A stretch of DNA of 64,000 nt from an uncultured virus (IMG/VR IMGVR_UViG_2061766007_000968) (IMGVR_UViG_2061766007_000968:1-64000), one strand, 5' to 3'. Shown: positions 32,847-47,242, counted from the first letter of the stretch. Notes: a model not told the origin generated them from the sequence alone. Numbers and translations are program-made.

Positions 32847-34307
32847 TTGTCAAAGAATAATGATGTCATAGACTACCTGGAGTCGGTTCTCGAGCCGGAA
32901 TTAAACGGCAAGGGCGCGACGGACAACAAGGTGGACAAACTGAAGGAGGCCGAGATCTGCGATGCGTTCGATTCGTACATCTGCGGGCGTCCGGATGATC
33001 AGGGATGCGACTTTTTCAAGGTCGCTGAGGGTGATGTCATGTATATGTTCAACGGCAAGTGGTACGAGAAGATAGACGATGTGCGGTTGAGGTATGTGGT
33101 GAAGGAGGTGATGCGGAGGGTGCATGTCGGGGTGGTCTACATACGGAATTCTGCGGAAAAGGTTGCCAAGGAGTGCAAGGAATCGCTACTTTCATGCGAA
33201 TGGTGCAAATTTGAGCCGGACAGACGGTATGTGGTGTTCAAAAACGGGGTGCTGGATGTCGAGCGGAAGGGTTTCTACGAGCATAATATCAAGTACAAGA
33301 CGGACATTGTCTTGAATTTCAACTATATGTCGAGCGAGCGGAGCGCGTTATGGGACAGGGTAATCCAGCAAACCGTTCCGGATGACGGTATGCGGAGCGC
33401 GATGCAGCAGTTCTGCGGTGCAATGTTGGCTGATAGGAAGAAGTTCAAGATCGAGTATATGCTCATGATGGTCGGATCTGGACGGAACGGAAAGTCAGTT
33501 GTGACAGATGCCATCGCGGGCGTGTTCGGGGACGATCTTGTGAGTTCGTACAGCCCCGAGCAGCTCTTCGGGAGCAGCAGTCACAGCCTTTATAACCTCG
33601 CGGACATCAACGGCAAACTCGCGAACATCTGCGATGATTTGAAGAACAAGGATTTCTCCGGCGGTGAGTTCAAGCAGTTCATCTCCGGCCATAAGTTCCA
33701 GGCCCGCCATATCTATGGCCGGCCTTTTGTTGTGTCCAAGATCCCTCTGATGGTCTGCTGTATGAACGAAATTCCGCCGACTACGGATGACACGATGGGT
33801 CATTATCGGCGGTTACTGCCGGTCTTGTGCCCGAACCAGGTTGCTGAAAAGGATGTGGATTACGAACTTCCTGTCAAATTGGCGACGGAGGAGAACAAGG
33901 CGGCCATCTTCAATTGGCTTCTTGAGGGTTATAAGGAATTCGTTGCGAACAAGGGAAGAATTGATGTCAGCGACAGCATTAAGAGCATTCGCGAGGAAAT
34001 CAAGGCGGACGCCAACTCGGCGCGTCGGTGGATTCGAGAGATGGGTTATAGGCCGATCAGCGCTCCGGACAAGACCGACCCGAGCTGGAAGCCCATCAAT
34101 GAGTGGATGAAGATTTACATCGAGTGGTGCAAGGAATGCTCCGAGAACCCGAAGACCGCGAAGGCTGTCGGGACGGTCTTGAGAGACCTCGGGTTCGCGA
34201 GCGAAAAGCGCCGCAGCACCACCTGGTACTGCATAGGCTCTCCAGAAGAGGAGAAGCCGGCGTATAGTTTCTTTGGGACTGACGATAATACGGACGCTCC
34301 GTTCTAG
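32847..34307 (+). CDS. P4/D5-family SF3 helicase (primase-associated)
   Basis: FKNGVLD, GSGRNGKS Walker A, FKQFISG, MNEIP..DDT.G.YRRL; probable TTG start at 32847 because the ATG at 32781 lies inside the leader structure. Confidence 0.9.
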   Translation: MSKNNDVIDYLESVLEPELNGKGATDNKVDKLKEAEICDAFDSYICGRPDDQGCDFFKVAEGDVMYMFNGKWYEKIDDVRLRYVVKEVMRRVHVGVVYIRNSAEKVAKECKESLLSCEWCKFEPDRRYVVFKNGVLDVERKGFYEHNIKYKTDIVLNFNYMSSERSALWDRVIQQTVPDDGMRSAMQQFCGAMLADRKKFKIEYMLMMVGSGRNGKSVVTDAIAGVFGDDLVSSYSPEQLFGSSSHSLYNLADINGKLANICDDLKNKDFSGGEFKQFISGHKFQARHIYGRPFVVSKIPLMVCCMNEIPPTTDDTMGHYRRLLPVLCPNQVAEKDVDYELPVKLATEENKAAIFNWLLEGYKEFVANKGRIDVSDSIKSIREEIKADANSARRWIREMGYRPISAPDKTDPSWKPINEWMKIYIEWCKECSENPKTAKAVGTVLRDLGFASEKRRSTTWYCIGSPEEEKPAYSFFGTDDNTDAPF

Positions 34308-34310
34308 GAT

Positions 34311-35231
34311 ATGGCTGATTACAGGATAGCAAGGGCATTCGAGCGGATCCCGGAGATAACTGGGCTGGAACTTACGCGGAACGGCGGCAAGTGGCAGGGG
34401 CCGTATTATATCGACGGCGCGAGGCATCCGATTCGGCGCGATAAATTGAAGATTTTTATCAGTCGCGGAACCATCTGGGTATACGAGGAGGGCGGCCACG
34501 GAATGAGTCTTCCGAACTGGCTTCAGCAATATGCCGGCGCGAGTGATTACTGGGACGCAATCAAGATAATCGAGGGAGAGTCAAGGGGGTTTGTATGGGA
34601 CAAGTCAGTCCGCCAGAAGCAGCTCAAGACAGAATATGTCGACCCGAATGTTGTTCTCGGGGCAAAGCAGTACCCGCTGGAGCGCTGCCCGCTGTTCCGG
34701 TGGATGTGCTCTATGTTCCCGGAAGATAAGGTTCGGGCGACCTGGGAGAAGTACGGGGTAACGACCGATTCGAACGGATTTTGCGTGTATTGGTATATCG
34801 ATCAGCAGGGAAGAGTTCTGTTCGACAAGCGCATAAAGTACGATGAGACGGGTCACAGAACGAAGGATTTCTTCCCTTCAAGGCAATATCGGGTCGCAGA
34901 TGGATACACGGGGCGGTGTATGTATGGCGCAAATGTTGCCGATATGGACAAGAAACTATATGTAGCGGAGAGCGAGAAGGCCGTGCTGCTAATAGACCTT
35001 ATGTATGGACGACAGGCGGTTGCTACTGGCGGAAAGTCGAATCTTCGCGACCTTGAAAAAAACATGGTATTATTGCCAGACTATGATGCTAGGGATGATT
35101 GGAGTATCAAGGCTCAAGAGGCCGGCATTGAAGTATGGCCATGGTGGGAGCGCTGGCCGGGCGGTAATGTGCCGGAGCACGCCGACATCGCCGATCTCAT
35201 AGAACTGAAAATGTTGCATAATAATAAATGA
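34311..35231 (+). CDS. Putative primase/Toprim-domain protein
   Basis: YWYID..G....K.IKY...GHR, VAESEKAV, ATGG, LLPDYD, DIAD. Confidence 0.7.
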   Translation: MADYRIARAFERIPEITGLELTRNGGKWQGPYYIDGARHPIRRDKLKIFISRGTIWVYEEGGHGMSLPNWLQQYAGASDYWDAIKIIEGESRGFVWDKSVRQKQLKTEYVDPNVVLGAKQYPLERCPLFRWMCSMFPEDKVRATWEKYGVTTDSNGFCVYWYIDQQGRVLFDKRIKYDETGHRTKDFFPSRQYRVADGYTGRCMYGANVADMDKKLYVAESEKAVLLIDLMYGRQAVATGGKSNLRDLEKNMVLLPDYDARDDWSIKAQEAGIEVWPWWERWPGGNVPEHADIADLIELKMLHNNK

Positions 35232-35236
35232 TTCCG

Positions 35237-35346
35237 TATATTTGCATAGTAAAGGTATGTGAGAGATACCGAGTAAGAACGATACGGCCCCTGCAAGTAG
35301 ACGGTTGCTCTCACCTTCCGTTGAACGCTGGGGCCTGATTTTTATT
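35237..35346 (+). promoter_or_regulatory. Promoter plus kissing-loop leader, copy A
   Basis: TATATTTG; loops GTGAGAG (35259-65) and CTCTCAC (35308-14); AGTAG/TGAA. Confidence 0.75.
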
Positions 35347-35973
35347 ATGGGGAAGTTTGTCGATCTTTCCGGGAAAAGATTCGGAAGACTTGTTGTTTTG
35401 GAATACCTCGGGTACTCGAAATGGAGGTGTGTTTGTGATTGTGGAAAAGAAAAGCATGTTAAAGGCGACGCCCTCAAATCGGGGCGAACGGTTTCGTGCG
35501 GTTGTTATCACATGGACATACTCTCTGGAAAACCGGCACACAACAGAACACATAACATGAAAGATACTCCGGAGTTTAATATTTGGTCAATGATGAAGAA
35601 TCGTTGTACAAACCCAAACTGTAATAGACACAAGTTCTATAAGGATAAGGGAATAAAAGTCTGTGATAGGTGGCTTGGTCCAAACGGTTTTCAGAATTTC
35701 ATAGCGGATATGGGAATGCGTCCCGGCCCATCATATTCTATAGACCGAATAGATAATGAAGGAGATTATACACCGGGGAATTGTAGATGGGCCACTAAAA
35801 AAGAGCAATCAAACAACCAGAGTCGGAATCTTATTATTTGCTATAACGGTAGGGAACAAACGCTCGCTTTATGGTGCGATGAACTTGGGCTCAACTATCA
35901 GAGAACATGGAAAAGGCTTAAAGACGGTTGGGACACAAAACGCGCATTCGAAGAGCCTTGTAGAGCGTGGTAA
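35347..35973 (+). CDS. HNH-type homing endonuclease (DLxGxRFGRL/CDCG family)
   Basis: DLSGKRFGRLVV, W.C.CDCG, SCGC, W..M..RC, SIDRIDNEGDY.P.NCRWAT..Q.NN. Confidence 0.85.
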   Translation: MGKFVDLSGKRFGRLVVLEYLGYSKWRCVCDCGKEKHVKGDALKSGRTVSCGCYHMDILSGKPAHNRTHNMKDTPEFNIWSMMKNRCTNPNCNRHKFYKDKGIKVCDRWLGPNGFQNFIADMGMRPGPSYSIDRIDNEGDYTPGNCRWATKKEQSNNQSRNLIICYNGREQTLALWCDELGLNYQRTWKRLKDGWDTKRAFEEPCRAW

Positions 35974-35996
35974 TTTAGAATAATTCCAAATTAGAT

Positions 35997-36383
35997 ATGT
36001 GTATTTGGCGTGTAAATAAGGAAGATAGGCTGTGCGGGTATTGCATTTATCGGCAGTGCGTTGACAGGCCGAGGCCAATCGACCAGGCTCAAGAGGCGTG
36101 CAATAGGTACGCGGTTATCTTGAATCGGCTGATGGGTGTGGATGTATTGGAGGACTCAAGGAAACAGGCGGTCGTATGGGGTCGGAATATGATTGCTTAC
36201 CAGATGTGTCTTGACGGTTTTACGCAGGAGCTGATAGCATCGTGCATTGGTCGCGATCGGTGTACTGTCGTGCATTGCGTCAAGAGCGTCGAGGCGATGA
36301 TGAACAACCCGCATCAGTATTGGCGTGAGAATGAAATTTGGAACAAATTCCGGGAAAAGCTATCTTTGGGAAAAAACACATAG
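35997..36383 (+). CDS. Protein with DnaA C-terminal-like HTH
   Basis: SRKQAVVWGRNMIAY...IASCIGRDRCTVVHCVKSV resembles DnaA domain IV (GGRDHTTVLHA). Confidence 0.65.
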   Translation: MCIWRVNKEDRLCGYCIYRQCVDRPRPIDQAQEACNRYAVILNRLMGVDVLEDSRKQAVVWGRNMIAYQMCLDGFTQELIASCIGRDRCTVVHCVKSVEAMMNNPHQYWRENEIWNKFREKLSLGKNT

Positions 36384-36387
36384 TATT

Positions 36388-36876
36388 ATGAGTAAATTTC
36401 AAACATGGTGGTGGTTCACATTTAGGAATCCGGTAATCCGCAAGGGGGAGTCCGGCGGATTCAAATGGTGCTTCAGGCGTCTGGATATGGAAATTCGGAC
36501 GGTAAGCGGGAATTTCAAGGCCAGATTCACGGCGGCAGAGAATCCTTATGCGTATTTGCTTGCGAGCGACGATGATTCGCAGGTGGAGGGATTCTGCCAG
36601 ATTCTTTATAGCGTAGGCATGCTACTGACGACCGACCAAGAATTTGTTGATTCCATCACGAAGGCTCTGCGAGACTATGACAAGCGCTTGAACAAGAAGG
36701 CTGCGTCCGAGGTCGCCGAAGACGAAACAGAAGAGAAGATTGCGCTCGAAGAGGTAAAGCAGGTGCAGGCGTATGTCGAGATGCCGGAGAAGGAACGGAA
36801 GAAGAGGGAGCGGGATGTCAATGGACGATTCAAGAAAGCGGTACGGAATTTGCAGGAAGAGTCCGAAAAAGAATAG
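36388..36876 (+). CDS. Hypothetical protein
   Basis: Likely start MSKFQTW at 36388. Confidence 0.7.
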   Translation: MSKFQTWWWFTFRNPVIRKGESGGFKWCFRRLDMEIRTVSGNFKARFTAAENPYAYLLASDDDSQVEGFCQILYSVGMLLTTDQEFVDSITKALRDYDKRLNKKAASEVAEDETEEKIALEEVKQVQAYVEMPEKERKKRERDVNGRFKKAVRNLQEESEKE

Positions 36877-36878
36877 TT

Positions 36879-37430
36879 ATGGAATCTCAAGAAAACGTTT
36901 ACTATCGGGTTGGCGGAAAGTTGACCCACTGCGGCGTTGAATGTCTGCCCCAGGGTCATGATATTCCGCGCATCGTCATCGAGCGGATTGAGTACAAGGA
37001 GAGCGAGATGATCAACGGGCGTTCTGAATTCGGCGTTTGGGTGGCGCATTTCGCACCGAACCCGTACACCAGCCTTCCGCTTATTTTGAACGCGACGAAC
37101 CGGAAACGGCTAATCAAGCAGTTCCCGGAATGCGACGGCTATCCTGCCCGTCTGAAGAATATCGCCGTTCGTCTCACGAAGGAGAAGTGCCGCGATATAC
37201 AGGACGGAGGCGAAACCTGGGGTCTGCGCATCAGCAAGATTCCGGCAGACCCGGAAAGCGCTCCGGCAAAAAAGAAGGTCATCACCCCAGATAAGGTAGA
37301 CATTGTCATAAATTGGGCGCGCGAGAACGGAAAAGGGATGTCGGATATTGCGTCAATGTATGACTTCGAGTCTGATACTGTGCGCGACGCGATTGCGGAT
37401 GCTCTGAATGTTAACGATTTACCGGAATAG
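36879..37430 (+). CDS. Putative ssDNA-annealing/recombination protein
   Basis: LILNATNRK motif, GLRI; lies upstream of the YqaJ-like exonuclease. Confidence 0.5.
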   Translation: MESQENVYYRVGGKLTHCGVECLPQGHDIPRIVIERIEYKESEMINGRSEFGVWVAHFAPNPYTSLPLILNATNRKRLIKQFPECDGYPARLKNIAVRLTKEKCRDIQDGGETWGLRISKIPADPESAPAKKKVITPDKVDIVINWARENGKGMSDIASMYDFESDTVRDAIADALNVNDLPE

Positions 37431-37433
37431 CAT

Positions 37434-37607
37434 ATGTTTAAAGAAGCAGAAATTTGGATTAAGTTCGCTTGTGCCGCGATTTCGGCGACCGACGGGCTTT
37501 ATTATGACAAGAAAAGTGTGAAGGATGAGTGCGCTGCGGCCTCCGCTTATGCGGACGAGATGATGGAGCAGTTTTACAAACGGTTCCCTGAGGAGGACGA
37601 ACTATGA
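37434..37607 (+). CDS. Small hypothetical protein (not in the ORF track)
   Basis: MFKEAEIWIKF...AYADEMM...EEDEL*, coupled to the next gene. Confidence 0.55.
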   Translation: MFKEAEIWIKFACAAISATDGLYYDKKSVKDECAAASAYADEMMEQFYKRFPEEDEL

Positions 37608-37819
37608 CAAACAAGGAGCTTGTCGTTAATATGTACGAGCACTTCAAGGAAGAAGCGGCTCTGCATAAAGAGGATCCCGAAAAGTTTGCTGCCGGGACGC
37701 TACAGGCAATGTTGATTTTTGCTTATGACTTGCTCGATAGGATTGAGTGCGCCACTGCAACTCCGTCTGACTGGACAAGGATGAAGGCAGGGATTATTAG
37801 GAATCACGGAGAGCGATGA
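37604..37819 (+). CDS. Hypothetical protein
   Basis: 71 aa, coupled on both sides. Confidence 0.6.
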   Translation: MTNKELVVNMYEHFKEEAALHKEDPEKFAAGTLQAMLIFAYDLLDRIECATATPSDWTRMKAGIIRNHGER

Positions 37820-38544
37820 CAAAGGAAGATAAATGGCTTCGGAAGAGGCTCGGTATGATTACCGCATCGGAACTAGGGGACATAACATCGGCTTCCGGGA
37901 AGATTATCGACAGCAACCTGTCCTACATACGCGCAAAGCGCTGGGAGCGGAAGCACGGATTCTCTCACCCTGTGTCCGCGCGCGCGATGGACATTGGAAA
38001 CGAGCAGGAGCCGATGATTGCAGAGTGGTGCCGGAAAAACCTTGGCATCGGAGAGATCGTTTATAGCAAGGAGTTGCCCGAAATTCCGTTTTGGATCTCC
38101 ACCGACAGCAGGGTGGGTGCATCCCCGGATGCGTTTACGCCAGACAAGCGCATTGTTATCGAGATGAAGACGCTTGTAGGCGCTACATCCATCGAGTTCT
38201 TCGGTGATGACTATACGCCGTATGAGGAGAAGAAACTTGCCGTCTGGAAGGATCATGGCGACCAGATTCTTGGCCAGTTTATCTCGAACTCTGCCGTACA
38301 GGAAATTTGGTTGGTAAAGTATATCTATCAGGACGACGATATAATGGCTGACACGGATTCTCCATTAGCTTCTTGGCGCGGGCTTGTGTTCAAGTTCGAT
38401 CGGAAGGACTATGAGAGTAGCATTGAAGAGATGCGCGAGCGCATTAGGCTCTTCGACGCTATGATTGATGCGCCCATTAACCCATCAGAGTTTAAGAAGG
38501 GCGAGTGGCATATTTTACCGGATGGACAACTCTCAAGGAAATGA
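37816..38544 (+). CDS. YqaJ/lambda-type exonuclease
   Basis: WL.KRLG.ITAS, AM..G..QEP, GASPDA, IEMK. Confidence 0.85.
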   Translation: MTKEDKWLRKRLGMITASELGDITSASGKIIDSNLSYIRAKRWERKHGFSHPVSARAMDIGNEQEPMIAEWCRKNLGIGEIVYSKELPEIPFWISTDSRVGASPDAFTPDKRIVIEMKTLVGATSIEFFGDDYTPYEEKKLAVWKDHGDQILGQFISNSAVQEIWLVKYIYQDDDIMADTDSPLASWRGLVFKFDRKDYESSIEEMRERIRLFDAMIDAPINPSEFKKGEWHILPDGQLSRK

Positions 38545-38697
38545 AATTTAAAAAGAAAGACGGCATTATCTACGACGAGAAAGGAAGAGCGCTTGTAAAG
38601 ACCGTATATTATGGTAAACGCAAGGTTCTTGAAAGGACTCCGACATGTACAATCGGAGAGTATTTCGCCGTTCTGTCTTGGATTTTTGATAAGGAAA

Positions 38698-39309
38698 ATG
38701 GCTAGGCTTCCCCTAAATAGGACTACAGCTCCGCAGGTCATCAGGCTCTTCGACTCGTGCTTCAAGCGCGGGGTTTTGGATGCATGTTCCCAAGATGACG
38801 ACTACGGCGTTAGGGAATGGCTTAACAGGCATAAGACGGACGGATCGTATGGCTTGGTATACGACGACGAGGATTTTGATTGGCGTCGTTGGCGGTTTAC
38901 GATAGAAAGGTGGTGCAGAGAAGACAGGCTGGGGTCTGTCGGGGATACATATATCAATTCGATATATGTTAGGAGAAATAGCCATAATTTTTTGTTTGCA
39001 GTCCTTCCGATGACAATGCGCTTCTATCTGATGGGTGTTGAGGAGTGGCTTGAATATCCGAACCCGTTGGGTATTGAGCGTTTCAAGCACACGAAGAAGA
39101 TCCATTGGAAGCAGATGCCGTCGCATATGGTGAATATGACAACGGCGGACTTTTTGAGTTATCTGCAGGAGTTTGTATACGAAAGGCAGAAGAAGAAACT
39201 CGAAGACGATTTGACGGAGTCGCAGTATGACAGCTTCTCTATTGCTATGTATAAATATACGAGAAAGTATGAGATACCTTACGACGAGCAGGCAGAAGAA
39301 GACATTTAA
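38698..39309 (+). CDS. Hypothetical protein
   Basis: Likely start MARLPLN. Confidence 0.7.
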   Translation: MARLPLNRTTAPQVIRLFDSCFKRGVLDACSQDDDYGVREWLNRHKTDGSYGLVYDDEDFDWRRWRFTIERWCREDRLGSVGDTYINSIYVRRNSHNFLFAVLPMTMRFYLMGVEEWLEYPNPLGIERFKHTKKIHWKQMPSHMVNMTTADFLSYLQEFVYERQKKKLEDDLTESQYDSFSIAMYKYTRKYEIPYDEQAEEDI

Positions 39310-39640
39310 AATCGCGCACATGGATCCCGGCTCATTGCATCTTGATTTCATCATATTGCCCGTCGGGTATTCATACAATTCCGATATAGCAAGCGCGAAG
39401 AAGAGCGACATCCTCCGGCTTGGAGATGGGTCTGAACATGAAATTTTTACAGTTCAGAAGATTCAGACCAAAAAACCTATCGCTGATCTTTTATGTAGGA
39501 TTCGCTACGGGATTACGCTTCGTGGATGTATAATGCGATGGAAGATGAATGCGCGACTAGAGGGGCACGGAGAAAAAGCGATAAGCGAAGACGAATGTTT
39601 ATTAGTAGTATATTCGATTGATGAATACGATAAAGGCTAA
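39269..39640 (+). CDS. Hypothetical protein
   Basis: About 123 aa, overlapping its neighbours. Confidence 0.55.
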   Translation: MRYLTTSRQKKTFKIAHMDPGSLHLDFIILPVGYSYNSDIASAKKSDILRLGDGSEHEIFTVQKIQTKKPIADLLCRIRYGITLRGCIMRWKMNARLEGHGEKAISEDECLLVVYSIDEYDKG

Positions 39641-39908
39641 ATACGCAGAATATGTTCTTGTCCCGAAAGAAGGGCTGTCCGGCATAGAGCCTGGTGCATA
39701 TGAAACGGCAGACGGGAAGACCTGTTTCGCCACATTCATTGCAGGCTGGGATAATCGAGACGGAGTGTACGACGAACAACTCGACCATATCTGTCAAAAG
39801 AGATGGAATTTGCCTTTTTCCTACATCAAGTCTCTTTGGATGGAGAGGTGTTGGGAGATTGAGGGGTATTGGTACTTATTGAATTTAAGGCTTAGTGTAA
39901 CAGGGTAA
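39621..39908 (+). CDS. Hypothetical protein
   Basis: 95 aa. Confidence 0.55.
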   Translation: MNTIKAKYAEYVLVPKEGLSGIEPGAYETADGKTCFATFIAGWDNRDGVYDEQLDHICQKRWNLPFSYIKSLWMERCWEIEGYWYLLNLRLSVTG

Positions 39909-39972
39909 TGGACCGGCCTAAACAACATACCGCTATAATGGCGGAGATCCCGTGAAAGCCGGGGGCCTTTCT

Positions 39973-40071
39973 GGATGGGTACCTCAGATGGTTAGAGGTC
40001 GGGAGGTGGCGAAATTGTGCTGAAATAAGCTCAGCCTTCCGAAGTCGCAGGTTCGAGTCCTGTCCCATCCG
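39973..40071 (+). ncRNA. tRNA-like RNA with an extended anticodon arm
   Basis: Acceptor GGATGGG/CCCATCC, D-arm CCTC-AGATGGTTA-GAGG, T-arm GCAGG-TTCGAGT-CCTGT; 32 nt where a 7-nt anticodon loop belongs. Confidence 0.75.
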
Positions 40072-40100
40072 CGAAATTTGTTTATATCGTAAATTCTTCT

Positions 40101-40210
40101 TATCTTTGCATAAACATTGTGTCGCAGACAATGAGTAGAAATTTAACACCCAGGACGAGTAGTGCAGAGCTGCGACCTCTGCGTGAAAGTTCTGGGATTG
40201 TTTTATAGAG
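40101..40210 (+). promoter_or_regulatory. Promoter plus kissing-loop leader, copy B
   Basis: TATCTTTG; loops GTCGCAG (40121-27) and CTGCGAC (40170-76); AGTAG/TGAA. Confidence 0.8.
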
Positions 40211-40801
40211 ATGGAAGAAATTTGGAAACCAATTGAAGGCTATGAAGGGAGATATGAGGCCGGAAATCTTGGGAACATAAAGAGCCTTAATTACCTTAAC
40301 ACTGGTATGGAAAAGGTAATGAAACCTTATTTGGTTGTGAGTAAGCACGGGAATGTCCCATATCTACAGGTCGATCTCTTTAAAAACGGCATAAGGCGTT
40401 CTCTCAAGGTACATGTTCTTGTATGTTCTGCATTTCATGGCGCACGGCCATCCGATATTGACGGAGACGATCATGTGGAAGCAATGCATTTGAACGGAAA
40501 TTCGTTAGACAACCGCGCGGTTAATCTCGCATGGGGAAGGCACATTGATAATGTCCGCGAGAAGAATTTTGTGGTAAAGCAAGTGGCGGCACAAAAGAAA
40601 AGATGGGAGAACGGAGAGTATGATTACCAAAAGAAGCCAGTAATGCAGTTTACTTTGGAAGGTGTTTTTGTTGCAAAATATGAGTCCGCATCATCCGCTC
40701 AAAGAGAGACGGGATGCAATCAAAGTGATATATCTAAACAGTGTCGCGGAGTAAGAAGATGGCCCGTTGGTGGCTTTAATTGGAAATTTGCTGATAAATA
40801 A
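40211..40801 (+). CDS. NUMOD4-HNH homing endonuclease
   Basis: EEIWKPIEGYEGRYE, VHVLV..AFHG, HLNGNSLDNRAVNLAW. Confidence 0.9.
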   Translation: MEEIWKPIEGYEGRYEAGNLGNIKSLNYLNTGMEKVMKPYLVVSKHGNVPYLQVDLFKNGIRRSLKVHVLVCSAFHGARPSDIDGDDHVEAMHLNGNSLDNRAVNLAWGRHIDNVREKNFVVKQVAAQKKRWENGEYDYQKKPVMQFTLEGVFVAKYESASSAQRETGCNQSDISKQCRGVRRWPVGGFNWKFADK

Positions 40802-40803
40802 TC

Positions 40804-42300
40804 ATGCAGTTACGCGATTATCAAAAGGAAATGCTTTCAGAGGCTCGTGAAGCGCTCAAGAAGTATAAACATATTATTGTTCAAGGGCCAACCGGAATGG
40901 GGAAGGGTGTCCTTATCGGTTCGATGGCATCGATGAGCAAGTATCGTGTATTAATTCTGGCGCATAGCGAGGAAATCCTGAAGCAAGATGCAGGTCACGC
41001 TCGCAAATGGGGTATAGAAGTCGCAGAGGTTTTTGCGAAAACTCGCAAGATGCCCGAGGCTCGCTGTGTTACAATGATGGCTCAGACGCTTCGGCAGAGG
41101 CTGAAGAAAGCGGAGTGGGCGAGATGGTTTGATGAGTTCGGGTTCATTATTTTGGACGAGTGCCACAGGGCCGAATTCGACTTTGTATTTGAGCAGCCAG
41201 GCGCGGACTGCAAATATGTCGTAGGGTTGTCCGCTTCTCCGGCAAGATATGGCCAAATGCGACAGCTCGGCTTGGACTATGGTGCAATCGTCATCGGCCC
41301 GCAGGTTTCCGAATTAATAGATCAAGGGTATCTGTGCAAGTGTCGGCTTTTCTCCTTGGACGCGCCGAACTTGGATGATGTTGAGTGGTCGTATGGACGC
41401 GGGGATTACAATCTCAGCCAGATGGCCGCGAAATTTAAATCAAGGGCGCGGTATGTCGGAGCAGTGGAGAACTACAAGCGCATCTGTCCAGGAGAGAAGA
41501 CTTTGGTGTTCTGCTGCAGCTCAGAGCAGACGATTGAATTGACGAAGGCTTTTTGTGAGGCCGGCATCGATGCCCGCTACTGCCTTTCCGGCGACTTTGA
41601 CGAGGACGACGATTACAGCGGTGATCGAAAGGATGTCGTTGATTCCTTCGCACGAGGAGATTTCCCAGTTTTGGTCAATTTTGGCCTATTCACGACCGGA
41701 ATCGACATTCCGGACATCAAGGTTGTGATGCTGATGTTCTCGACGACATCGCTGGTCAAGTACCTGCAGTGCCTTGGACGTGCCAGTCGGCCGGCTGAGG
41801 GCAAGAACGGAGAATTCATCTGCCTGGACTTTGGGCGCAACTATGAGCGGCTTGGCCGGTACGAGGATGACCGCATATGGTCCGTCTGGCACAATACCGG
41901 CGCTGGCGGCGGCGTCGCGCCTACGAAGGAATGCCCGCAGTGTGGAAGGCTGGTGCCGGTGTCATGGAAGCAGTGCCAGTTTTGCCAGTATGTCTGGCCG
42001 ACGCAGCAGGAAATATACAATGCCGAACTTAACGAAATCGTAGCGAGGGAAGATGAGGAATCTCTAGAATCTTATGTGGCGAGAAAGAAGTTAGAGGGGA
42101 AGTCGAATAACTGGATATTGGTACAGTGCTGCATAAAGAATCCGGATAATCAAAAGGAAGCCTTTATGAGAGCCATTGAGGTGCTAAGAACAAAGCACGG
42201 GGCGAACATCAGCCCGAAGTACTACTTCTTTTTTAAGAAAGAAATCCTAAGCAAGGTCAAGTTCAAGAAAAAAGACGAAGGCCCTTCTTTATTCAAATAA
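40804..42300 (+). CDS. SF2 DEAD/DEAH-like helicase with C-terminal zinc finger
   Basis: LRDYQ, PTGMGKG, DECH, SASP, TGIDIP, Q.LGR..R, CPQC..CQFC. Confidence 0.92.
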   Translation: MQLRDYQKEMLSEAREALKKYKHIIVQGPTGMGKGVLIGSMASMSKYRVLILAHSEEILKQDAGHARKWGIEVAEVFAKTRKMPEARCVTMMAQTLRQRLKKAEWARWFDEFGFIILDECHRAEFDFVFEQPGADCKYVVGLSASPARYGQMRQLGLDYGAIVIGPQVSELIDQGYLCKCRLFSLDAPNLDDVEWSYGRGDYNLSQMAAKFKSRARYVGAVENYKRICPGEKTLVFCCSSEQTIELTKAFCEAGIDARYCLSGDFDEDDDYSGDRKDVVDSFARGDFPVLVNFGLFTTGIDIPDIKVVMLMFSTTSLVKYLQCLGRASRPAEGKNGEFICLDFGRNYERLGRYEDDRIWSVWHNTGAGGGVAPTKECPQCGRLVPVSWKQCQFCQYVWPTQQEIYNAELNEIVAREDEESLESYVARKKLEGKSNNWILVQCCIKNPDNQKEAFMRAIEVLRTKHGANISPKYYFFFKKEILSKVKFKKKDEGPSLFK

Positions 42301-42307
42301 TTCTTCT

Positions 42308-42421
42308 TATCTTTGCATACACACTCGTGTTGCAGACGAGGAAGAGAAATATAAGAGCCCCGAATGAGTAGGAAGGTGCTGCAACCACCTTTTGAAAATT
42401 CGGGGATTCGTTTTTTTTGAT
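42308..42421 (+). promoter_or_regulatory. Promoter plus kissing-loop leader, copy C
   Basis: TATCTTTG; loops GTTGCAG (42329-35) and CTGCAAC (42379-85); AGTAG/TGAA. Confidence 0.8.
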
Positions 42422-43012
42422 ATGGAAGAAATTTGGAAGGATGTAAAGGGGTACGAAGGAGAATATCTGGTTTCAAATCATCAGCGGGTAAAAAGAGTAA
42501 GAGACGGCTATATATTGCAGCCTGTTATATCAACAGCAGGATACAAGGTAATCGGGCTTCGGCACAGACAGTTTCAATTGTCAAGAATTATTGCTACTGC
42601 GTTTATACCGAACCCTGATAATAAACCGCAAATTGACCACATAGATGGAAACCCTTTGAATAATAGTATATCAAATTTGAGGTGGGCAACAAGTAAAGAA
42701 AATATCAATAACCCAATCACGAAAATTCGTCAAAAGGCGGCTATGAGAAAGAAGTGGAAGGATGGAGTTTACGATGGTAATAAACGCAGTATTTTTCAAT
42801 ACACAAAGGCTGGAACTTTTATTAGAGAATGGAATAGCATAAAGGATGCAGCAGACTTTCTCGGTAAAAATAGGGCGACAATTATAAATGCTTTATCTCA
42901 CCCAGATAAGAGAAAGACAATGCATGGATATATCTGGTGCTACGCTGACGACACTAAGCGCATAAAAGAAATCGAATCATTGCGCGAGGACTCCTCGCAG
43001 AAACTGTTTTAG
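42422..43012 (+). CDS. NUMOD4-HNH homing endonuclease
   Basis: EEIWKDVKGYEGEYLVSN, AFIPNP.NKPQIDHIDGNPLNN..SNLRW. Confidence 0.9.
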   Translation: MEEIWKDVKGYEGEYLVSNHQRVKRVRDGYILQPVISTAGYKVIGLRHRQFQLSRIIATAFIPNPDNKPQIDHIDGNPLNNSISNLRWATSKENINNPITKIRQKAAMRKKWKDGVYDGNKRSIFQYTKAGTFIREWNSIKDAADFLGKNRATIINALSHPDKRKTMHGYIWCYADDTKRIKEIESLREDSSQKLF

Positions 43013-43038
43013 GCATATTCTTTGTAGGTCTCCCGGGC

Positions 43039-43749
43039 ATGATACTATCTACTGACAATTACCAGCGCATCTACGACCAGCTTCTGGACGAGCGGGTAAA
43101 GGTGCATTATTATTTGCAAAAGAACGCAAATAAGATGAATAAGCAACTCCGCTCCGCAAAGAGCATACCTGTATGGTATTGCGAAACCATTACGATGCCG
43201 AAGACCAACAACACTTACCTATTGTATTACTATGCTGCGACAAAAGGAGAGGTTGCGACCGGATCTTGTTGGTCTGGCGCGCCGCTTCTCATAAACGACG
43301 AGAACGGACACAGGGTTGCCGTAATGCTCCGAAAGATGACAGAGTCTGATCCGCGCGCCAAAACCGAGACAAAGTACATGTCGCTGCAGGTCTATTCCGG
43401 TCATTTTTTTAGTCGTTACAGAGAGCGGATGAATCTTTCTGCCAGTCTTTCATCTAACGATGTAATAACTGCGTACTTCGGTCGTAATGAGGGTTATTTT
43501 TCAGAATTGGATTATGACAAAATCGTGCTGGAGAAGAACCGACATAAAGGCAACAGCGCATTTGGCATAGATGACGGTGTAACGCTCGCGGAGGTAACGA
43601 GATTGGATGGCGGTCTTGTCGTGTTCAAGCATAACACATTTCTGTCAAGAAGCGAGTTGAAGGACAGCCAAGAGGAGGCGACCCCTTCCAAGGAAATGAT
43701 GAGGACAATGGCTCTTGCGTGGGAATTGAAAGGTATGGCGAAAAAGTAA
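43039..43749 (+). CDS. Hypothetical protein (HFFSRYRER motif)
   Basis: 236 aa. Confidence 0.75.
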   Translation: MILSTDNYQRIYDQLLDERVKVHYYLQKNANKMNKQLRSAKSIPVWYCETITMPKTNNTYLLYYYAATKGEVATGSCWSGAPLLINDENGHRVAVMLRKMTESDPRAKTETKYMSLQVYSGHFFSRYRERMNLSASLSSNDVITAYFGRNEGYFSELDYDKIVLEKNRHKGNSAFGIDDGVTLAEVTRLDGGLVVFKHNTFLSRSELKDSQEEATPSKEMMRTMALAWELKGMAKK

Positions 43750-43912
43750 GGAAGATGACAATTGAAGAATACAAGACCCAGCCATTTAAATATGACGGAG
43801 AGGGAAGACCCGTCCCGATAAGCGAAATCTGGTCAGACCTGTCTCGCCGCGACCGCCGAGAGATGGAACGGCTCGTCAAGAAAGGGAAGAATCCCGATAT
43901 AATGAAGTATTT

Positions 43913-44140
43913 ATGAGTGAACAAGTAAACCACCCATCTCACTACTTGAAGAACGGTAGGGAGTGCATAGATGTAATGATAGAAAAGTTCGGCATCCAGG
44001 CAGTAATTAACTTCTGCGAGTGCAACCAGTTCAAATACGAGTGGCGTGCGGGGCTGAAGGAAGGCAATTCTGCGGAGCAGGATTACCAAAAAGCGGAATG
44101 GTACAAAAGGAAAGCCGCAGAACTTCGCGCTTCAAAATAA
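43913..44140 (+). CDS. DUF3310-like protein
   Basis: VNHPSHY..ECID..KY.WR.G.K..D..KA.WY. Confidence 0.85.
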   Translation: MSEQVNHPSHYLKNGRECIDVMIEKFGIQAVINFCECNQFKYEWRAGLKEGNSAEQDYQKAEWYKRKAAELRASK

Positions 44141-44343
44141 TTTTGCTATCTTTGCAAAAACCGTAATGTTATGGAAAAAGAATGGATTAGCCCGTATGTC
44201 CACCCGAATGTTGGTATGCAGGTAAGGATGTGGATTCGAAACAAGCGCTCCGGAAAGAGTTCTTACAGAAAGGCGACTTGGGACGGAACGCATTGGTCTC
44301 TTGAGAAAATATCAACCGACTACGAGTTGGTGGGTTGGCACGA

Positions 44344-44739
44344 ATGATTATAGAAACTCCAGAGCAGCCGAAAAAGCGCCGGCATTCGCAGCCGGAAATG
44401 AAACTCCAGGCTGAATGCTTTCGCATGGCGTGGAACGATTTTCCTATTACAAGAAAACTTCTTTTTCATGTTGAAAACGAACTGAATTTTGCCGGGGACA
44501 ATTCCATTCGCGGGGCGATTCGCAGATCAGAAGGGATTGTAAAGGGCGTGTCTGACTTGATTCTGCTTATACCACGCCGGGACTGGCACGGTCTAATGAT
44601 CGAACTTAAAACAGAGGATGGCCGGCAGTCACTTGCCCAGAAAGAATGGCAGTCACTTGTCGAGGCGCAGGGATACCGTTACGAAATAATCCGAACTTTG
44701 GATGATTTTCGATCTCTTCTCTGGGATTATCTCGGATAA
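44344..44739 (+). CDS. VRR-NUC nuclease
   Basis: E..LQ, EG..KGVSDL, IELK...GRQS..Q..W. Confidence 0.85.
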   Translation: MIIETPEQPKKRRHSQPEMKLQAECFRMAWNDFPITRKLLFHVENELNFAGDNSIRGAIRRSEGIVKGVSDLILLIPRRDWHGLMIELKTEDGRQSLAQKEWQSLVEAQGYRYEIIRTLDDFRSLLWDYLG

Positions 44740-44757
44740 ATTCTTATCTTTGTCATT

Positions 44758-45369
44758 ATGCCTGGGATTTTACCGATGCGCCCGAAATCGGGCAAATTTG
44801 ACCTCAGACCGGAAGAGATGGATGGTCTGTCGTATTATGTTTTGTCTGGATGTCCCCGTGAGGTAGCATTTCTCAAGTTTATGCGACCAGACTTTATTGG
44901 TTCAAAAGCCCAGACGGTCATCAAGAATGCCGTGTCGCAATTCTTTGCGATGAAGGATGTGAAGGATTACTTGGACGCATATAGGGCAACCATAGAAGAA
45001 TTATTGAGCCCATCTAAAAGGGAGGACAAACCCAGCGGCACTCTTGAGGAGCGGAAGGCGAGGGCAAAGACGAAGATAGTCGAGTTCGCAATGGAGTTGG
45101 CGGACAATATAGAAAACGCAAGTGACAAGGAGTTCGTTTTAAAGATGGCAGACAAGGCCGGACTTCTCGACCAGGAAGAACAGGTCGAAGAGCAGCCTAG
45201 GAGGTATCTCCCTGTAAGCTGCCAGTCCGGGTGCGCGTATAGGATGTTCTGCGAGGAGAGCGCCGATGATATGTGTCAATACTGCAAGTATCACGCATTC
45301 GGAGAGGAGAATGGGGTTCACTTCGAAAAAACAGAAATTCTCGATGTTCCTATTGCTAATTCGGAATAA
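44758..45369 (+). CDS. Hypothetical protein, possible terminase small subunit
   Basis: Helical HTH-like N-terminus and Cys-rich tail (RYLP..C..C.Y); upstream of the large terminase. Confidence 0.45.
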   Translation: MPGILPMRPKSGKFDLRPEEMDGLSYYVLSGCPREVAFLKFMRPDFIGSKAQTVIKNAVSQFFAMKDVKDYLDAYRATIEELLSPSKREDKPSGTLEERKARAKTKIVEFAMELADNIENASDKEFVLKMADKAGLLDQEEQVEEQPRRYLPVSCQSGCAYRMFCEESADDMCQYCKYHAFGEENGVHFEKTEILDVPIANSE

Positions 45370-45374
45370 TTTCG

Positions 45375-45482
45375 TATCTTTGCTTTCGCCAAGTACGAGA
45401 TGGCGAAATGGACACATAGAGGCCCGGATAAGTAGGCGTTTGCTCGTACCACTCGCTGAACATTCGGGCACTTTTTGTAAAA
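45375..45482 (+). promoter_or_regulatory. Promoter plus kissing-loop leader, copy D
   Basis: TATCTTTG; loops GTACGAG (45393-99) and CTCGTAC (45443-49); AGTAG/TGAA. Confidence 0.75.
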
Positions 45483-46257
45483 ATGGGAAAGATAAATGAC
45501 CTTACTGGTCGCAGATTTGGCCGACTTATAGCCCTTGAGTATATGGGGAGAAGAAACGGGAGGACATTGTGGCGGTGCGCGTGTGATTGCGGGAAGGAAA
45601 CTATCGTTGGATATTCCAGTCTTTTGAGCGGTGGCACGCGCTCTTGCGGATGTCTTGAAAAAGAAAATTTAGCATTTATTCAGAAGAATTCAGCCAACCG
45701 GGTATCTGCATCGAAAGATTTTCCCGGAAGTCTTAATAAACATCCCTTATACGGGACATGGTCTAGCATGTTGACTAGGTGCTATAATCAAAACAGCATT
45801 TCATATAGGAATTATGGCGGGCNNNNNNNNNNNNNNNNNNNNNNNNNNNNNNNNNNNGTTTCAGCATTTTGTAGATGATGTGGGAGAAAGACCGTCCTCG
45901 AACCATACGATTGACAGGATAGATGTCAATGGGGATTATTCCCCAGATAATTGTCGGTGGGCAACGGTCGATCAGCAGTCAAACAATAGACGCGACTCTG
46001 TCATTGTTTATTATAATGGAAATAGAGTACCCCTTACGCATGTTTGCACTGCACTTGGCCTGAATTATAGTAGGGTTTCGCATCAGATTCAGAAAGGGTT
46101 TGACATAAATGCGATTGTAGAACATGGCGGAATCGATTTTCGCCGAAAGGGGTTTAGTGGGAACACGGAAAAGTATAAGAATTTTAATAGAAATATTACT
46201 ATCTTTGTTCCACAACTAAACGCTGGCACGGAACTTGAAGAAGAAAATGTCGGATAG
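45483..46257 (+). CDS. HNH-type homing endonuclease (same family as 35347), spans an assembly gap
   Basis: DLTGRRFGRL..CDCG..SCGC..W.SM..RC..YGG [N-run] F..DVGERP..TIDRIDVNGDYSPDNCRWAT; the two track ORFs are one gene. Confidence 0.8.
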
Positions 46258-46333
46258 TTACCATAACTTTGCTTTCGGGCGGTGAGGCTTTCGAAGCGCA
46301 GCCGCCCATTTTGATGAAACTTTTTTATAAAAT

Positions 46334-46651
46334 ATGGAGATTAAAGGAAAAATTACAGCAATCCCGCCGGAAAAGACCGGGGTGTCAACAAGAGGCCCTT
46401 GGCGGAAGGTCTTTATTGTCGTGGAGTACGATGGAGGACAATATCCGAAGCAGGTCATCTTGTCGAACATGAACAAGGCGGAAGATTTTTCTCGGCTGAA
46501 GATCGGAGATGTGTGTACATTCAAGTTTGACGGATCTGTCAACGAAAGGAATGGTAACTACTATATGGATTTGAATTGTTGGTCTTGGAGGCTAGAGTCC
46601 GGTCAGCCGCAGACAGCCCCTCCTGCGCAGGGCGGGAGTCAACCGTTTTAA
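46334..46651 (+). CDS. DUF3127-like OB-fold ssDNA-binding protein
   Basis: MEIKGKI..G.S....W.K..QYPK..L.CW, C-terminal PF. Confidence 0.8.
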   Translation: MEIKGKITAIPPEKTGVSTRGPWRKVFIVVEYDGGQYPKQVILSNMNKAEDFSRLKIGDVCTFKFDGSVNERNGNYYMDLNCWSWRLESGQPQTAPPAQGGSQPF

Positions 46652-46718
46652 AATACGCCGTGAGGCGGTTTCCCATAGTTTTAGTGTTTAGTTGATGACT
46701 GCTGGAAAGACAGCTGAC

Positions 46719-46824
46719 GGAGGAACGGCCCGGTTGGTCTGGGCGAGAAGCGGATGGTGAAATCTGTCGTGTTGCAAGCACGCAGTCCGCGAGACAGGCG
46801 GGGGTCCGATTCCCCCTTCCTCTG
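46719..46824 (+). ncRNA. tRNA-like RNA with an extended anticodon arm
   Basis: Acceptor GGAGGAA/TTCCTCT, D-arm GCCC-GGTTGGTCT-GGGC, T-arm GGGGG-TCCGATT-CCCCC; long bulged central arm. Confidence 0.65.
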
Positions 46825-46923
46825 CTAACCGCAGGGATGCGCTACGGGCGAAATAATGAGTGAAAGCTTTTTTTTTCGAACATAATTTATCCTCCCCGGG
46901 CTGCCCGACCGGGGATTTGTAAT

Positions 46924-47157: not shown

Positions 47158-47215
47158 GGGCGGCAAGACTACTTTTGGTTCAGGATACTCTTATACGCGC
47201 CGCCCTTTTTTATTT
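47157..47215 (+). terminator. Terminator-like stem with a large loop
   Basis: agggcggc / gccgccct followed by a T-tract. Confidence 0.55.
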
Positions 47216-47242
47216 TCTACGAATTTTATATATTTGCGGTGT

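What the first reader, a model, noticed from the sequence alone, without database searches (positions are those of the whole stretch)
35237..45482. Four HNH genes share a promoter plus kissing-loop/loop-E leader, each with its own loop triplet
Seen in sequence: upstream of the endonuclease genes at 35347, 40211, 42422 and 45483 the same arrangement recurs. It consists of TAnnTTTG, hairpin 1 with loop GTnnnAG, a purine-rich linker, an outer stem, AGTAG, an inner stem closed by G-C around loop CTnnnAC, TGAA, the outer stem partner, a T-rich spacer and the ATG. The loop pairs are GTGAGAG/CTCTCAC (35259/35308), GTCGCAG/CTGCGAC (40121/40170), GTTGCAG/CTGCAAC (42329/42379) and GTACGAG/CTCGTAC (45393/45443). 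All four are perfect 7-bp complements, and stem sequences differ between copies while pairing is kept, which is covariation within one genome. Established: AGUA/GAA is the loop-E (sarcin-ricin type) motif, and TAnnTTTG is the Bacteroidetes -7 promoter element. Inference: this is a structured RNA module that controls or assists mobile endonucleases, with copy-specific loops that limit cross-talk. I do not recognise it as a named RNA family.
Basis: partly seen in the sequence, partly recalled or inferred. Interest (0 to 1): 0.92.

Follow-up and report, generated by a model that had tools for sequence, protein, structure and literature searches.

The report
Kissing-loop leader RNA of phage nucleases
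Four selfish DNA-cutting-enzyme genes in this rumen/gut-type phage each carry their own promoter and the same folded RNA leader of about 100 bases, whose two hairpin tips always pair with each other and which ends like a transcription stop signal, so it most likely limits how much nuclease is made.

Summary
Each of the four leaders has a TAnnTTTG box, a 5' hairpin, an A-rich linker and a long hairpin, followed by a U-tract and the ATG. The long hairpin is an outer stem, AGUAG/UGAA and an inner stem. The fold is real. On 26 distinct leaders from this and related phages, 96% of cells are paired, 24 of 28 pairs covary, and the 7-bp loop-loop helix is paired in 182 of 182 cells. Searches that ignored the loops recovered only members with 7/7 complementary loops, apart from one variant that has lost hairpin 1. 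I saw 16 loop sequences. Rfam 15 has no match. A 2023 list of unnamed phage RNA candidates may include it (DNAVirus_8377); I could not verify this. A relative with empty sites shows that promoter, leader and nuclease gene insert as one unit. The leader precedes three HNH families, and in other phages a DNA methylase and a replication initiator. The A-rich linker, GC-rich stem base and U-tract together look like an intrinsic terminator. My best reading is a leaky transcription attenuator (confidence 0.45). The claim that copy-specific loops limit cross-talk is not supported (P=0.09).

The parts
35237..35244 (+). copy 1: TATATTTG, Bacteroidota-type -7 promoter box
   Evidence: it starts 6 nt after the stop codon of the upstream gene (34311-35231)
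35254..35270 (+). copy 1: hairpin 1 (GGTAT / ATACC) with loop L1 GTGAGAG at 35259-35265
35271..35285 (+). copy 1: A/purine-rich linker (A-tract of the terminator-like unit)
35286..35335 (+). copy 1: long hairpin. Outer stem GGCCCC..GGGGCC, AGTAG 35296-35300, inner stem, loop L2 CTCTCAC 35308-35314, TGAA 35322-35325
35336..35346 (+). copy 1: U-rich tract up to the ATG
35347..35973 (+). HNH endonuclease, phrog_374 type (208 aa)
   Evidence: E 1.8e-68
40101..40108 (+). copy 2: TATCTTTG promoter box
40115..40133 (+). copy 2: hairpin 1 (CATTGT / ACAATG) with L1 GTCGCAG at 40121-40127
40149..40196 (+). copy 2: long hairpin. Outer stem CCCAGGAC/GTTCTGGG, AGTAG 40158-40162, inner stem TGCAGAG/CTCTGCG, L2 CTGCGAC 40170-40176, TGAA 40184-40187
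40197..40210 (+). copy 2: U-rich tract
40211..40801 (+). NUMOD4-HNH_3-NUMOD1 endonuclease (196 aa). The helicase gene starts 3 nt later, at 40804, with no promoter box of its own
42308..42315 (+). copy 3: TATCTTTG promoter box
42324..42340 (+). copy 3: hairpin 1 (CTCGT / ACGAG) with L1 GTTGCAG at 42329-42335
42358..42405 (+). copy 3: long hairpin. Outer stem CCCCGAAT/ATTCGGGG, AGTAG 42367-42371, inner stem GAAGGTG/CACCTTT, L2 CTGCAAC 42379-42385, TGAA 42393-42396
42406..42421 (+). copy 3: U-tract (ATTCGTTTTTTTTGAT)
42422..43012 (+). NUMOD4-HNH_3-NUMOD1 endonuclease (196 aa)
45375..45382 (+). copy 4: TATCTTTG promoter box
45385..45407 (+). copy 4: hairpin 1 (TTCGCCA / TGGCGAA, with an A.A closing the loop) with L1 GTACGAG at 45393-45399
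45422..45469 (+). copy 4: long hairpin. Outer stem GCCCGGAT/ATTCGGGC, AGTAG 45431-45435, inner stem GCGTTTG/CACTCGC, L2 CTCGTAC 45443-45449, TGAA 45457-45460
45470..45482 (+). copy 4: U-tract
45483..46257 (+). phrog_374-type HNH gene broken into two overlapping ORFs (45483-45878, 45814-46257)
   Evidence: the two ORFs match consecutive parts of the profile

Best explanation
Each unit is a free-standing homing-endonuclease cassette that brings its own expression control. That control is a host-type promoter followed by a leader RNA of about 100 nt, running from the transcription start region to the ATG. The leader folds into a 5'-terminal hairpin and a long hairpin. The GC-rich base of the long hairpin lies between an A-rich tract and a U-tract, which is the anatomy of an intrinsic terminator. 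The tip of the long hairpin pairs with the loop of the 5' hairpin through 7 Watson-Crick pairs. A sarcin-ricin/loop-E-like AGUAG/UGAA internal loop lies between the two stems. I propose that the leader is a leaky transcription attenuator. Most polymerases that start at the cassette promoter, and those arriving from upstream genes, stop at the U-tract. The rest read on and give a low, buffered level of nuclease mRNA. The loop-loop pairing sets the stop/read-through ratio. It could do so by pre-organising the terminator hairpin. Alternatively, as proposed for the guanidine-IV riboswitch, it could compete sterically with closure of the terminator base, because the 15-19-nt linker barely spans the stacked helices. 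Shown: the fold, its covariation, its place inside the mobile unit, and the terminator-like sequence features. Inferred: that transcription starts at the box, that termination occurs, and the direction in which the loop-loop helix acts.
For: Structure: on 26 distinct leaders, 96.0% of 728 cells are paired against 70.0% in shuffles (0 of 500 shuffles reach the observed value). 24 of 28 pairs change on both sides. Slid controls give 37-48% paired. The loop-loop helix is paired in 100% of cells and 6 of 7 of its pairs covary. Loop-blind tests: a pattern without loop letters gave 28 viral loci. 25 of them are family members, all with 7/7 complementary loops, and 3 are chance hits without an inner stem. 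A covariance model without the loop-loop helix found 41 sites in 26 virus records. The 15 sites re-aligned (9 distinct leaders that no pattern scan had found, 2 identical repeats of them, and 4 known from the patterns or the seed alignment) all have 7/7 complementary loops. RNA on the + strand: the G.U at columns 56-78 is present in 26 of 26 leaders, and G.U pairs are frequent in the stems. Terminator features: all 39 distinct leaders have a T-rich tail directly after the stem. The mean is 6.2 T in the first 10 nt, and the median tail score of -4.25 lies in the top 1.5% of window positions. MFE folds of copies 3 and 4 pair the A-rich linker with the U-tract. A distant member (L098) keeps the U-tract and then adds a separate AGGAGG site before its ATG, so the U-tract is not simply the ribosome-binding region. 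Cassette: relative G017 has empty sites at positions 1 and 2, so promoter, leader and HNH form one indel. Other TAnnTTTG boxes in the window lie 13-70 nt before genes with no such leader. [quoted passage not shown] In guanidine-IV a loop-loop helix between a 5' hairpin and the terminator hairpin decides termination (PMC11611296, passages). A probable listing of the family (DNAVirus_8377) is flagged 'RNIE terminator: yes' (PMC10690425, supplement table; identity not verified).
Against: There are no transcript data, because no RNA run was listed. Start, stop and read-through are therefore all inferred. The hairpin is atypical for a terminator: it is about 50 nt long with an internal loop, and the simple terminator scan did not flag it. 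In most copies the U-tract is interrupted, and it starts 1-5 nt after the stem. The helicase gene at 40804 follows the copy-2 HNH gene by 3 nt and has no TAnnTTTG box of its own. An efficient terminator there would starve an essential gene, so termination must be weak or relieved. No alternative antiterminator pairing was found. A plain terminator needs neither loop E nor a 7-bp loop-loop helix, so these conserved parts are not explained by attenuation alone. The nearly constant ATG distance (21-25 nt after TGAA in 35 of 39 leaders) would also fit a role in translation.
Confidence: 0.45

Rival explanations
1. A translation or mRNA-stability element. The compact 5'-terminal fold protects the message from 5'-end-dependent decay. 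It may also hold an unstructured U/A-rich landing pad at a fixed distance before the AUG, for ribosomes of a host that does not use Shine-Dalgarno pairing.
For: Hairpin 1 starts 2-9 nt after the -7 box, so the RNA probably begins at its foot. The ATG lies 21-25 nt after TGAA in 35 of 39 leaders. The ATG is unpaired in the MFE folds of copies 2-4. Genes after the cassettes need transcription to pass through the leader.
Against: L098 keeps the U-tract and adds its own AGGAGG site, so the tract is not the ribosome site there. The constant spacing may only reflect shared ancestry. A simple 5' hairpin would be enough for protection.
Confidence: 0.2
2. A docking site for a protein (a phage regulator, a host factor or the nucleases themselves). 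The protein reads the invariant loop-E/G.U platform and so represses or times the expression of all cassettes together.
For: The only invariant unpaired letters are AGUAG, UGAA and the G.U beside them (26 of 26), while every helix varies. From general knowledge (recalled), bulged-G/loop-E motifs are common protein platforms. This reading is compatible with attenuation.
Against: Three unrelated HNH families, a methylase and a replication initiator share the leader, so autoregulation by the encoded protein is unlikely. No candidate binding protein was identified.
Confidence: 0.15
3. A small RNA in its own right, with a promoter, a 105-nt RNA and a terminator. It would act in trans or assemble with itself. 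The two complementary loops would pair between molecules ('hand in hand'), not within one, giving dimers addressed by the loop sequence.
For: A promoter plus a terminator-like end define a discrete unit. My own geometric estimate puts the stacked helices (5-7 + 7 + 8 + about 5 + 8-9 layers) at about 90-100 A. That is close to the maximal reach of a 15-19-nt linker, so pairing in cis with all helices formed would be strained. The loop-loop helix has no wobble pairs. Short natural phage-associated RNAs can oligomerise (bioRxiv 10.64898/2026.07.01.735769, abstract).
Against: Within-genome loop diversity is not significant (P=0.09). Pairing in cis is favoured by local concentration. Guanidine-IV has a comparable layout and is taken to pair in cis. 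One natural variant (L241) has lost hairpin 1 but keeps the rest and an intact ORF. No target for the linker was sought.
Confidence: 0.1
4. A DNA-level element (a cruciform, or a recognition or recombination site of the homing endonucleases) and not an RNA.
For: Inverted repeats lie at the 5' edge of the mobile unit.
Against: G.U pairs are kept on the + strand only, including one invariant G.U. Orientation relative to promoter and ATG is fixed in all 39 leaders. Three HNH families with different DNA-binding modules share the element.
Confidence: 0.03

Closest known systems
Guanidine-IV riboswitch (mepA motif)
   Same: A 5' hairpin, a linker and a second hairpin that is part of an intrinsic terminator. 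A loop-loop helix between the two hairpin loops decides between termination and read-through, and linker length creates steric competition (PMC11611296, passages read).
   Different: Here the loop letters vary freely (16 loop sequences), so no conserved ligand pocket lies at the loop-loop helix. The helix is 7 perfect Watson-Crick pairs. A loop-E-like internal loop is present. The downstream genes are nucleases, not guanidine exporters. No Rfam model matches, even at E<=10.
Internal intrinsic terminator of T4 mobE (free-standing HNH homing endonuclease)
   Same: A terminator limits the transcript level of a free-standing HNH gene lying between essential phage genes (PMC2790892, abstract).
   Different: mobE is described there as promoterless, with the terminator inside the gene. 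Here the cassette has its own promoter, and the terminator-like hairpin lies in a 5' leader with tertiary pairing.
Unnamed candidate DNAVirus_8377 in 'Identification of over ten thousand candidate structured RNAs in viruses and phages' (PMC10690425)
   Same: It is 105 nt long, has 88 sequences, is flagged 'RNIE terminator yes', and has Bacteroidetes as predicted host. It lies within 25 bp upstream of HNH_3, NUMOD4, AP2 and GIY-YIG genes (supplement tables).
   Different: Identity is not verified, because the alignment files could not be read. Its sequences come mostly from freshwater. The main text contains no occurrence of its name, of 'HNH' or of 'kissing' (term searches).
Antisense-controlled kissing systems (ColE1 RNA I/II, R1 CopA/CopT, IncB/IncI rep leaders)
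   Same: 7-nt loops that pair completely; a leader upstream of a gene whose dose must be kept low (recalled, not read here).
   Different: No antisense promoter box lies within 150 nt of any copy, and there is no conserved leader ORF. Both loops are on the same transcript.
   Same: Two complementary loops on one phage RNA that covary between relatives (recalled, not read here).
   Different: pRNA is a packaging-motor component, not an mRNA leader. There is no sequence or Rfam match. Pairing between molecules is untested here.

Membership tests
Any Rfam 15 family | Covariance-model match at or near the gathering score | tested here: not met
   0 matches at gathering score over the whole window. 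At E<=10 over 35000-45700 there were only two unrelated weak hits, neither at a leader.
Guanidine-IV riboswitch (mepA motif) | Two hairpins whose loops can form a loop-loop helix, the second hairpin belonging to a terminator | tested here: met
   (architecture only)
Guanidine-IV riboswitch (mepA motif) | Highly conserved nucleotides around the loop-loop helix that are crucial for its formation (PMC11611296 passage) | tested here: not met
   The loop cores vary (3-4 pair types at each of the three central positions in 26 leaders). In distant members all 7 positions change.
Guanidine-IV riboswitch (mepA motif) | Association with guanidine export/detoxification genes | tested here: not met
   The ORFs downstream of the 39 distinct leaders are mostly HNH endonucleases, with one methylase and one replication initiator.
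Intrinsic (Rho-independent) terminator | GC-rich stem followed at once by a U-tract, often preceded by an A-tract | tested here: met
   39 of 39 leaders have a T-rich tail; the median tail score is in the top 1.5% of window positions. The A-rich linker pairs with the U-tract in the MFE folds of copies 3 and 4.
Intrinsic (Rho-independent) terminator | Simple hairpin with a short loop (3-8 nt) | tested here: not met
   The consensus scan lists none of the four sites. The 'loop' closed by the outer stem is a structured insert of about 33 nt.
Intrinsic (Rho-independent) terminator | RNA 3' ends at the U-tract | not testable with these tools
   No RNA run was listed.
Loop E / sarcin-ricin (bulged-G) motif | AGUA opposite GAA between two helices | tested here: met
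   AGTAG and TGAA are invariant in 26 of 26 aligned leaders and are flanked by covarying stems. The consensus itself is recalled; one literature search gave no usable source.
Loop E / sarcin-ricin (bulged-G) motif | Non-Watson-Crick pairs and the S-turn backbone | not testable with these tools
   Needs chemical probing or a solved structure.
T-even style control of homing endonucleases by an RBS-sequestering hairpin | The start codon or ribosome site is paired inside the regulatory hairpin | tested here: not met
   The ATG lies 12-15 nt beyond the outer stem (counted from the sequence) and is unpaired in the MFE folds of copies 2-4.
Antisense-RNA kissing control | A promoter on the opposite strand giving a countertranscript | tested here: not met
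   No TAnnTTTG box on the - strand within 50 nt upstream to 150 nt downstream of any copy. Other promoter types were not tested.
Leader-peptide attenuation | A conserved short ORF in the leader | tested here: not met
   Leader ATGs give unrelated peptides of 1-25 aa; copy 1 gives 'M-stop'.

The most novel reading that the evidence does not exclude
The two complementary loops pair between molecules and not within one. With all helices stacked, the 15-19-nt linker barely reaches, so each leader RNA would form a head-to-tail dimer (or ring) with copies carrying the same 7-nt 'address'. The loop sequence would then act as an identity code for each homing-endonuclease lineage. The result would be a natural self-addressed RNA assembly that gates transcription or translation of a selfish gene.
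Probability: 0.1. Interest if true: 0.85.

Novelty: new variant of a known kind. Interest (0 to 1): 0.6.

Why it matters
How free-standing homing endonucleases keep their toxic enzyme low without harming the operons they invade has so far been worked out only in T-even-type phages. This family offers a portable, RNA-encoded solution in Bacteroidota-type phages. Promoter, structured leader and terminator-like stop travel with the nuclease gene and are reused by at least three nuclease families. The fold is unusually well supported: all four helices covary, including a 7-bp loop-loop helix. It is small enough for direct biochemistry. It also resembles the guanidine-IV design without a conserved ligand pocket, so it can test whether a loop-loop helix alone can tune an intrinsic terminator. 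It is also a candidate new Rfam family and a possible tunable expression part for Bacteroides and Prevotella.

Tried and rejected
- **RNA-seq evidence:** no RNA holder was listed for window 35200-45199.
- **Cultured phages:** megablast of 34000-46500 and blastn of the copy-3 leader against 50,697 phage records gave no match.
- **tRNA mimicry of the 7-nt loops:** the loop triplets show no pattern, and ARAGORN finds nothing at the leaders. I dropped this idea.
- **Leader peptide:** no conserved ORF.
- **Antisense promoter:** none found.
- **Extension of loop complementarity into the stems:** checked by eye on copies 1-4; none.
- **Cross-talk avoidance:** permutation of 45 copies over 27 records gives P=0.09 for 'no duplicate within a genome'. 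Loops do not evolve faster than stems. Counted in sequence pairs, same loops with a different inner stem occurs 30 times and the reverse 6 times; same hairpin-1 stem with different loops occurs 47 times and the reverse 10 times.
- **Chance hits:** 49 of the 74 viral loci lack the upstream complement. I inspected the 7 with 5 or more inner-stem pairs, and none has a promoter, outer stem or U-tract. The other 42 had 4 or fewer pairs and were not inspected.
- **Genome-contig scan:** 43 loci gave 1 family member, on a 41-kb contig labelled uncultured Prevotellaceae. This is the same length as virus record G025.
- **Metagenome scan:** of the 80 loci fetched, 28 have 7/7 complementary loops, 1 is a member without hairpin 1 (L241), and 51 are chance hits.
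- **Literature searches:** searches found no description of the motif. The candidate-RNA alignments of PMC10690425 (mmc4/mmc5 zip files) could not be read, so a prior listing cannot be excluded.
- **Earlier scan notes:** one words query was rejected for having too many words and was repeated in a shorter form.

Full report
**What is there.** The window is 64 kb of a 67-kb uncultured virus record. Its genes are phage replication, packaging and structural genes. TAnnTTTG boxes occur 32 times on the + strand and 10 times on the - strand, often just before genes. That this box is the Bacteroides -7 promoter element rests on recall. A literature search listed 24 papers that hold the term, and I read none of them.

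Each of the four units reads as follows:
- a TAnnTTTG box;
- 2-9 nt;
- hairpin 1 (5-7 bp, 7-nt loop L1);
- a 15-17-nt A/purine-rich linker;
- an 8-9-bp GC-rich outer stem;
- R-AGUAG;
- a 7-bp inner stem closed by G-C around the 7-nt loop L2;
- UGAA-M;
- the outer stem partner;
- a U-rich tract of 11-16 nt;
- the ATG.

L1 and L2 are exact reverse complements in all four copies. The core pattern occurs exactly four times in the window, against 0.03 expected.

**Is the fold real?** I collected relatives in three ways.
- A pattern with fixed CT..AC loop letters gave 74 viral loci. 25 of them have the exact L2 complement upstream. I inspected the 7 of the other 49 loci that had 5 or more inner-stem pairs, and they are chance matches.
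- A pattern that says nothing about the loops (CCCC-N4-5-AGTAG-N21-TGAA-N4-5-GGGG) gave 28 viral loci. 25 are family members, all with 7/7 complementary loops. The other 3 are chance hits without an inner stem. This set includes members in which even the 'constant' loop letters have changed together: ATGACGG/CCGTCAT, CTGGCAC/GTGCCAG and AGTAACG/CGTTACT.
- A covariance model built without the loop-loop helix found exactly the four sites in the window. It found 41 sites in 26 related virus records.

I re-aligned 15 of those 41 sites. They comprise 9 distinct leaders that no pattern scan had found, 2 identical repeats of them, and 4 already known from the patterns or the seed alignment. All 15 have 7/7 complementary loops, and they add five new loop sequences.

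On an alignment of 26 distinct leaders, 96.0% of 728 cells are paired, against 70.0% in shuffles (0 of 500 shuffles reach the observed value). Sliding the partners gives 37-48% paired. 24 of 28 pairs change on both sides. The loop-loop helix is paired in every cell with Watson-Crick pairs only, and 6 of its 7 pairs covary. Part of that alignment was selected for loop complementarity, so the loop-blind sets above are the fair test.

G.U pairs in the stems, and an invariant G.U next to AGUA/GAA, show that the RNA of the + strand is what is conserved, not a DNA cruciform.

The metagenome scan gave 28 further hits with 7/7 complementary loops, many of them the same phages. It also gave one real exception, L241, which has the promoter, linker, long hairpin, U-tract and an intact NUMOD4 ORF but no hairpin 1. 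Its close relative L357 still has hairpin 1.

**What it belongs to.** Of the 39 distinct leaders, most precede HNH endonucleases of three families: phrog_59 (NUMOD4-HNH_3), phrog_374, and phrog_953/559 with DUF723. I scanned 18 of the 39 downstream ORFs against Pfam and 14 against PHROGs. The rest I classed by their N-terminal 'EIWK' motif. The exceptions are:
- one N6/N4 DNA methyltransferase (L009);
- one replication-initiation protein (L095);
- three leaders followed only by a short ORF (L042, L098, L136).

The same leader type is found before different HNH families. For example, copy 1 here is phrog_374, while L053 and L026 carry the same leader before NUMOD4 genes. The modules therefore recombine.

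Relative G017 (about 70% nucleotide identity) has empty sites at positions 1 and 2. There the flanking genes are 13 nt apart, or the helicase ATG directly follows the tRNA-like gene. The whole promoter-leader-HNH unit is therefore the insertion.

Other promoters of this phage have no such leader. Three other HNH-like genes of the phage lack it.

**How it probably works.** The outer stem is GC-rich and is followed at once by a U-rich tract in 39 of 39 leaders. The mean is 6.2 T in 10 nt. A TransTermHP-style tail score, with the formula recalled, has a median of -4.25, which lies in the top 1.5% of all window positions. The linker in front of the stem is A-rich, and it pairs with the U-tract in the MFE folds of copies 3 and 4. 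A-tract, GC stem and U-tract make up the anatomy of an intrinsic terminator.

The distant member L098 keeps the U-tract and then has its own AGGAGG site. This argues that the tract belongs to the RNA element and is not the ribosome site. I therefore read the leader as a leaky attenuator that keeps nuclease expression low.

Two precedents support this reading. T4 mobE has an internal terminator that regulates its transcript level (PMC2790892, abstract). In the guanidine-IV riboswitch, a loop-loop helix between a 5' hairpin and the terminator hairpin competes with closure of the terminator, partly through the length of the linker (PMC11611296, passages). My own estimate puts the stacked helices here at about 90-100 A, near the limit of a 15-19-nt linker. 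The same kind of steric competition is therefore conceivable, but the sign of the effect is unknown.

Against strong termination: the helicase gene follows the copy-2 HNH gene by 3 nt and has no promoter box of its own, so transcription must pass the leader. The loop-E-like platform is unexplained by attenuation alone and may bind a protein. I found no antisense promoter and no conserved leader ORF.

**The cross-talk idea.** I saw 16 loop sequences. In the 11 records with more than one copy, none of the 27 within-genome pairs shares a loop type. Random dealing gives that result with P=0.09. The copies are also not independent, because related phages share cassettes. Loops do not evolve faster than stems. 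Loop diversity is explained by old cassette lineages with compensated drift. Selection for orthogonality is neither needed nor excluded.

**Known or new.** Rfam 15 has no match, at gathering score or at E<=10. Three full-text searches found no description of the motif. The supplement of PMC10690425 lists an unnamed candidate, DNAVirus_8377. It is 105 nt long, has 88 sequences, is flagged RNIE terminator 'yes', has Bacteroidetes as predicted host, and lies upstream of HNH_3/NUMOD4/AP2/GIY-YIG genes. It may be this family. Its alignment could not be read, and term searches of the main text found no occurrence of its name, of 'HNH' or of 'kissing'.

Earlier notes of this scan describe the same design in at least 21 other genomes. 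They are unchecked leads and not independent evidence. They pointed me to the guanidine-IV and mobE comparisons, which I then read myself.

**Verdict.** This is a real, covariation-supported leader RNA family that has no name. The mechanism is inferred. Attenuation is the best-supported reading (confidence 0.45). Translation or stability control, protein docking and RNA-RNA assembly remain open.

Noticed in passing
window 39973-40072 (+); relative G017 66632-66750: A tRNA-like gene with an insert in the anticodon arm: 25 nt here and 43 nt in G017. It is found only when ARAGORN is allowed introns. Plain ARAGORN finds nothing, and Rfam gives only a weak tRNA-Sec hit at E=1. In G017 the helicase ATG follows it directly.
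   Followed up: partly
window 45483-46257 (+): The HNH gene behind leader copy 4 is split into two overlapping ORFs that match consecutive parts of phrog_374. It is either a frameshifted, probably decaying homing endonuclease that keeps an intact leader, or a case of programmed frameshifting. I did not test which.
   Followed up: partly
window 10259-10365 (+): A different structured leader lies before another NUMOD4-type HNH gene (10366-10911). It has a TACCTTTG box, an outer stem AGCGAGA/TCTCGCT, an inner hairpin GGCGGG/CCCGCC whose loop holds the palindrome TCATGA, a GCTAAT...ATTAGC pairing that reaches towards the start codon, and a T-rich tail (read by eye). It is not a match to model R1.
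   Followed up: no
window 46690-46930 (+): A GC-rich stretch that looks structured, with a T-arm-like GGGGGTCCGATTCCCCC and a run of nine T. It lies between the SSB-like gene and a 77-aa fragment of a phrog_374 HNH gene (46924-47157). No Rfam or tRNA hit.
   Followed up: no
L241 (metagenome locus), around 880-960: A family member that has lost hairpin 1 altogether but keeps the promoter box, linker, long hairpin, U-tract and an intact NUMOD4 ORF. Relative L357 still has the hairpin with the matching loop. This is a natural 'loop-1 deletion' mutant.
   Followed up: partly
window 47150-47236 (+): A canonical simple terminator (GGGCGGC...GCCGCCC followed by TTTTTTATTTT) lies directly before the TATATTTG box of the terminase gene. 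It shows what an ordinary terminator of this phage looks like.
   Followed up: no
window 30509-31000 (+): An HNH_3 gene that overlaps the end of the upstream ORF and has neither its own promoter box nor a leader. It is a homing endonuclease expressed differently from the four cassettes.
   Followed up: no
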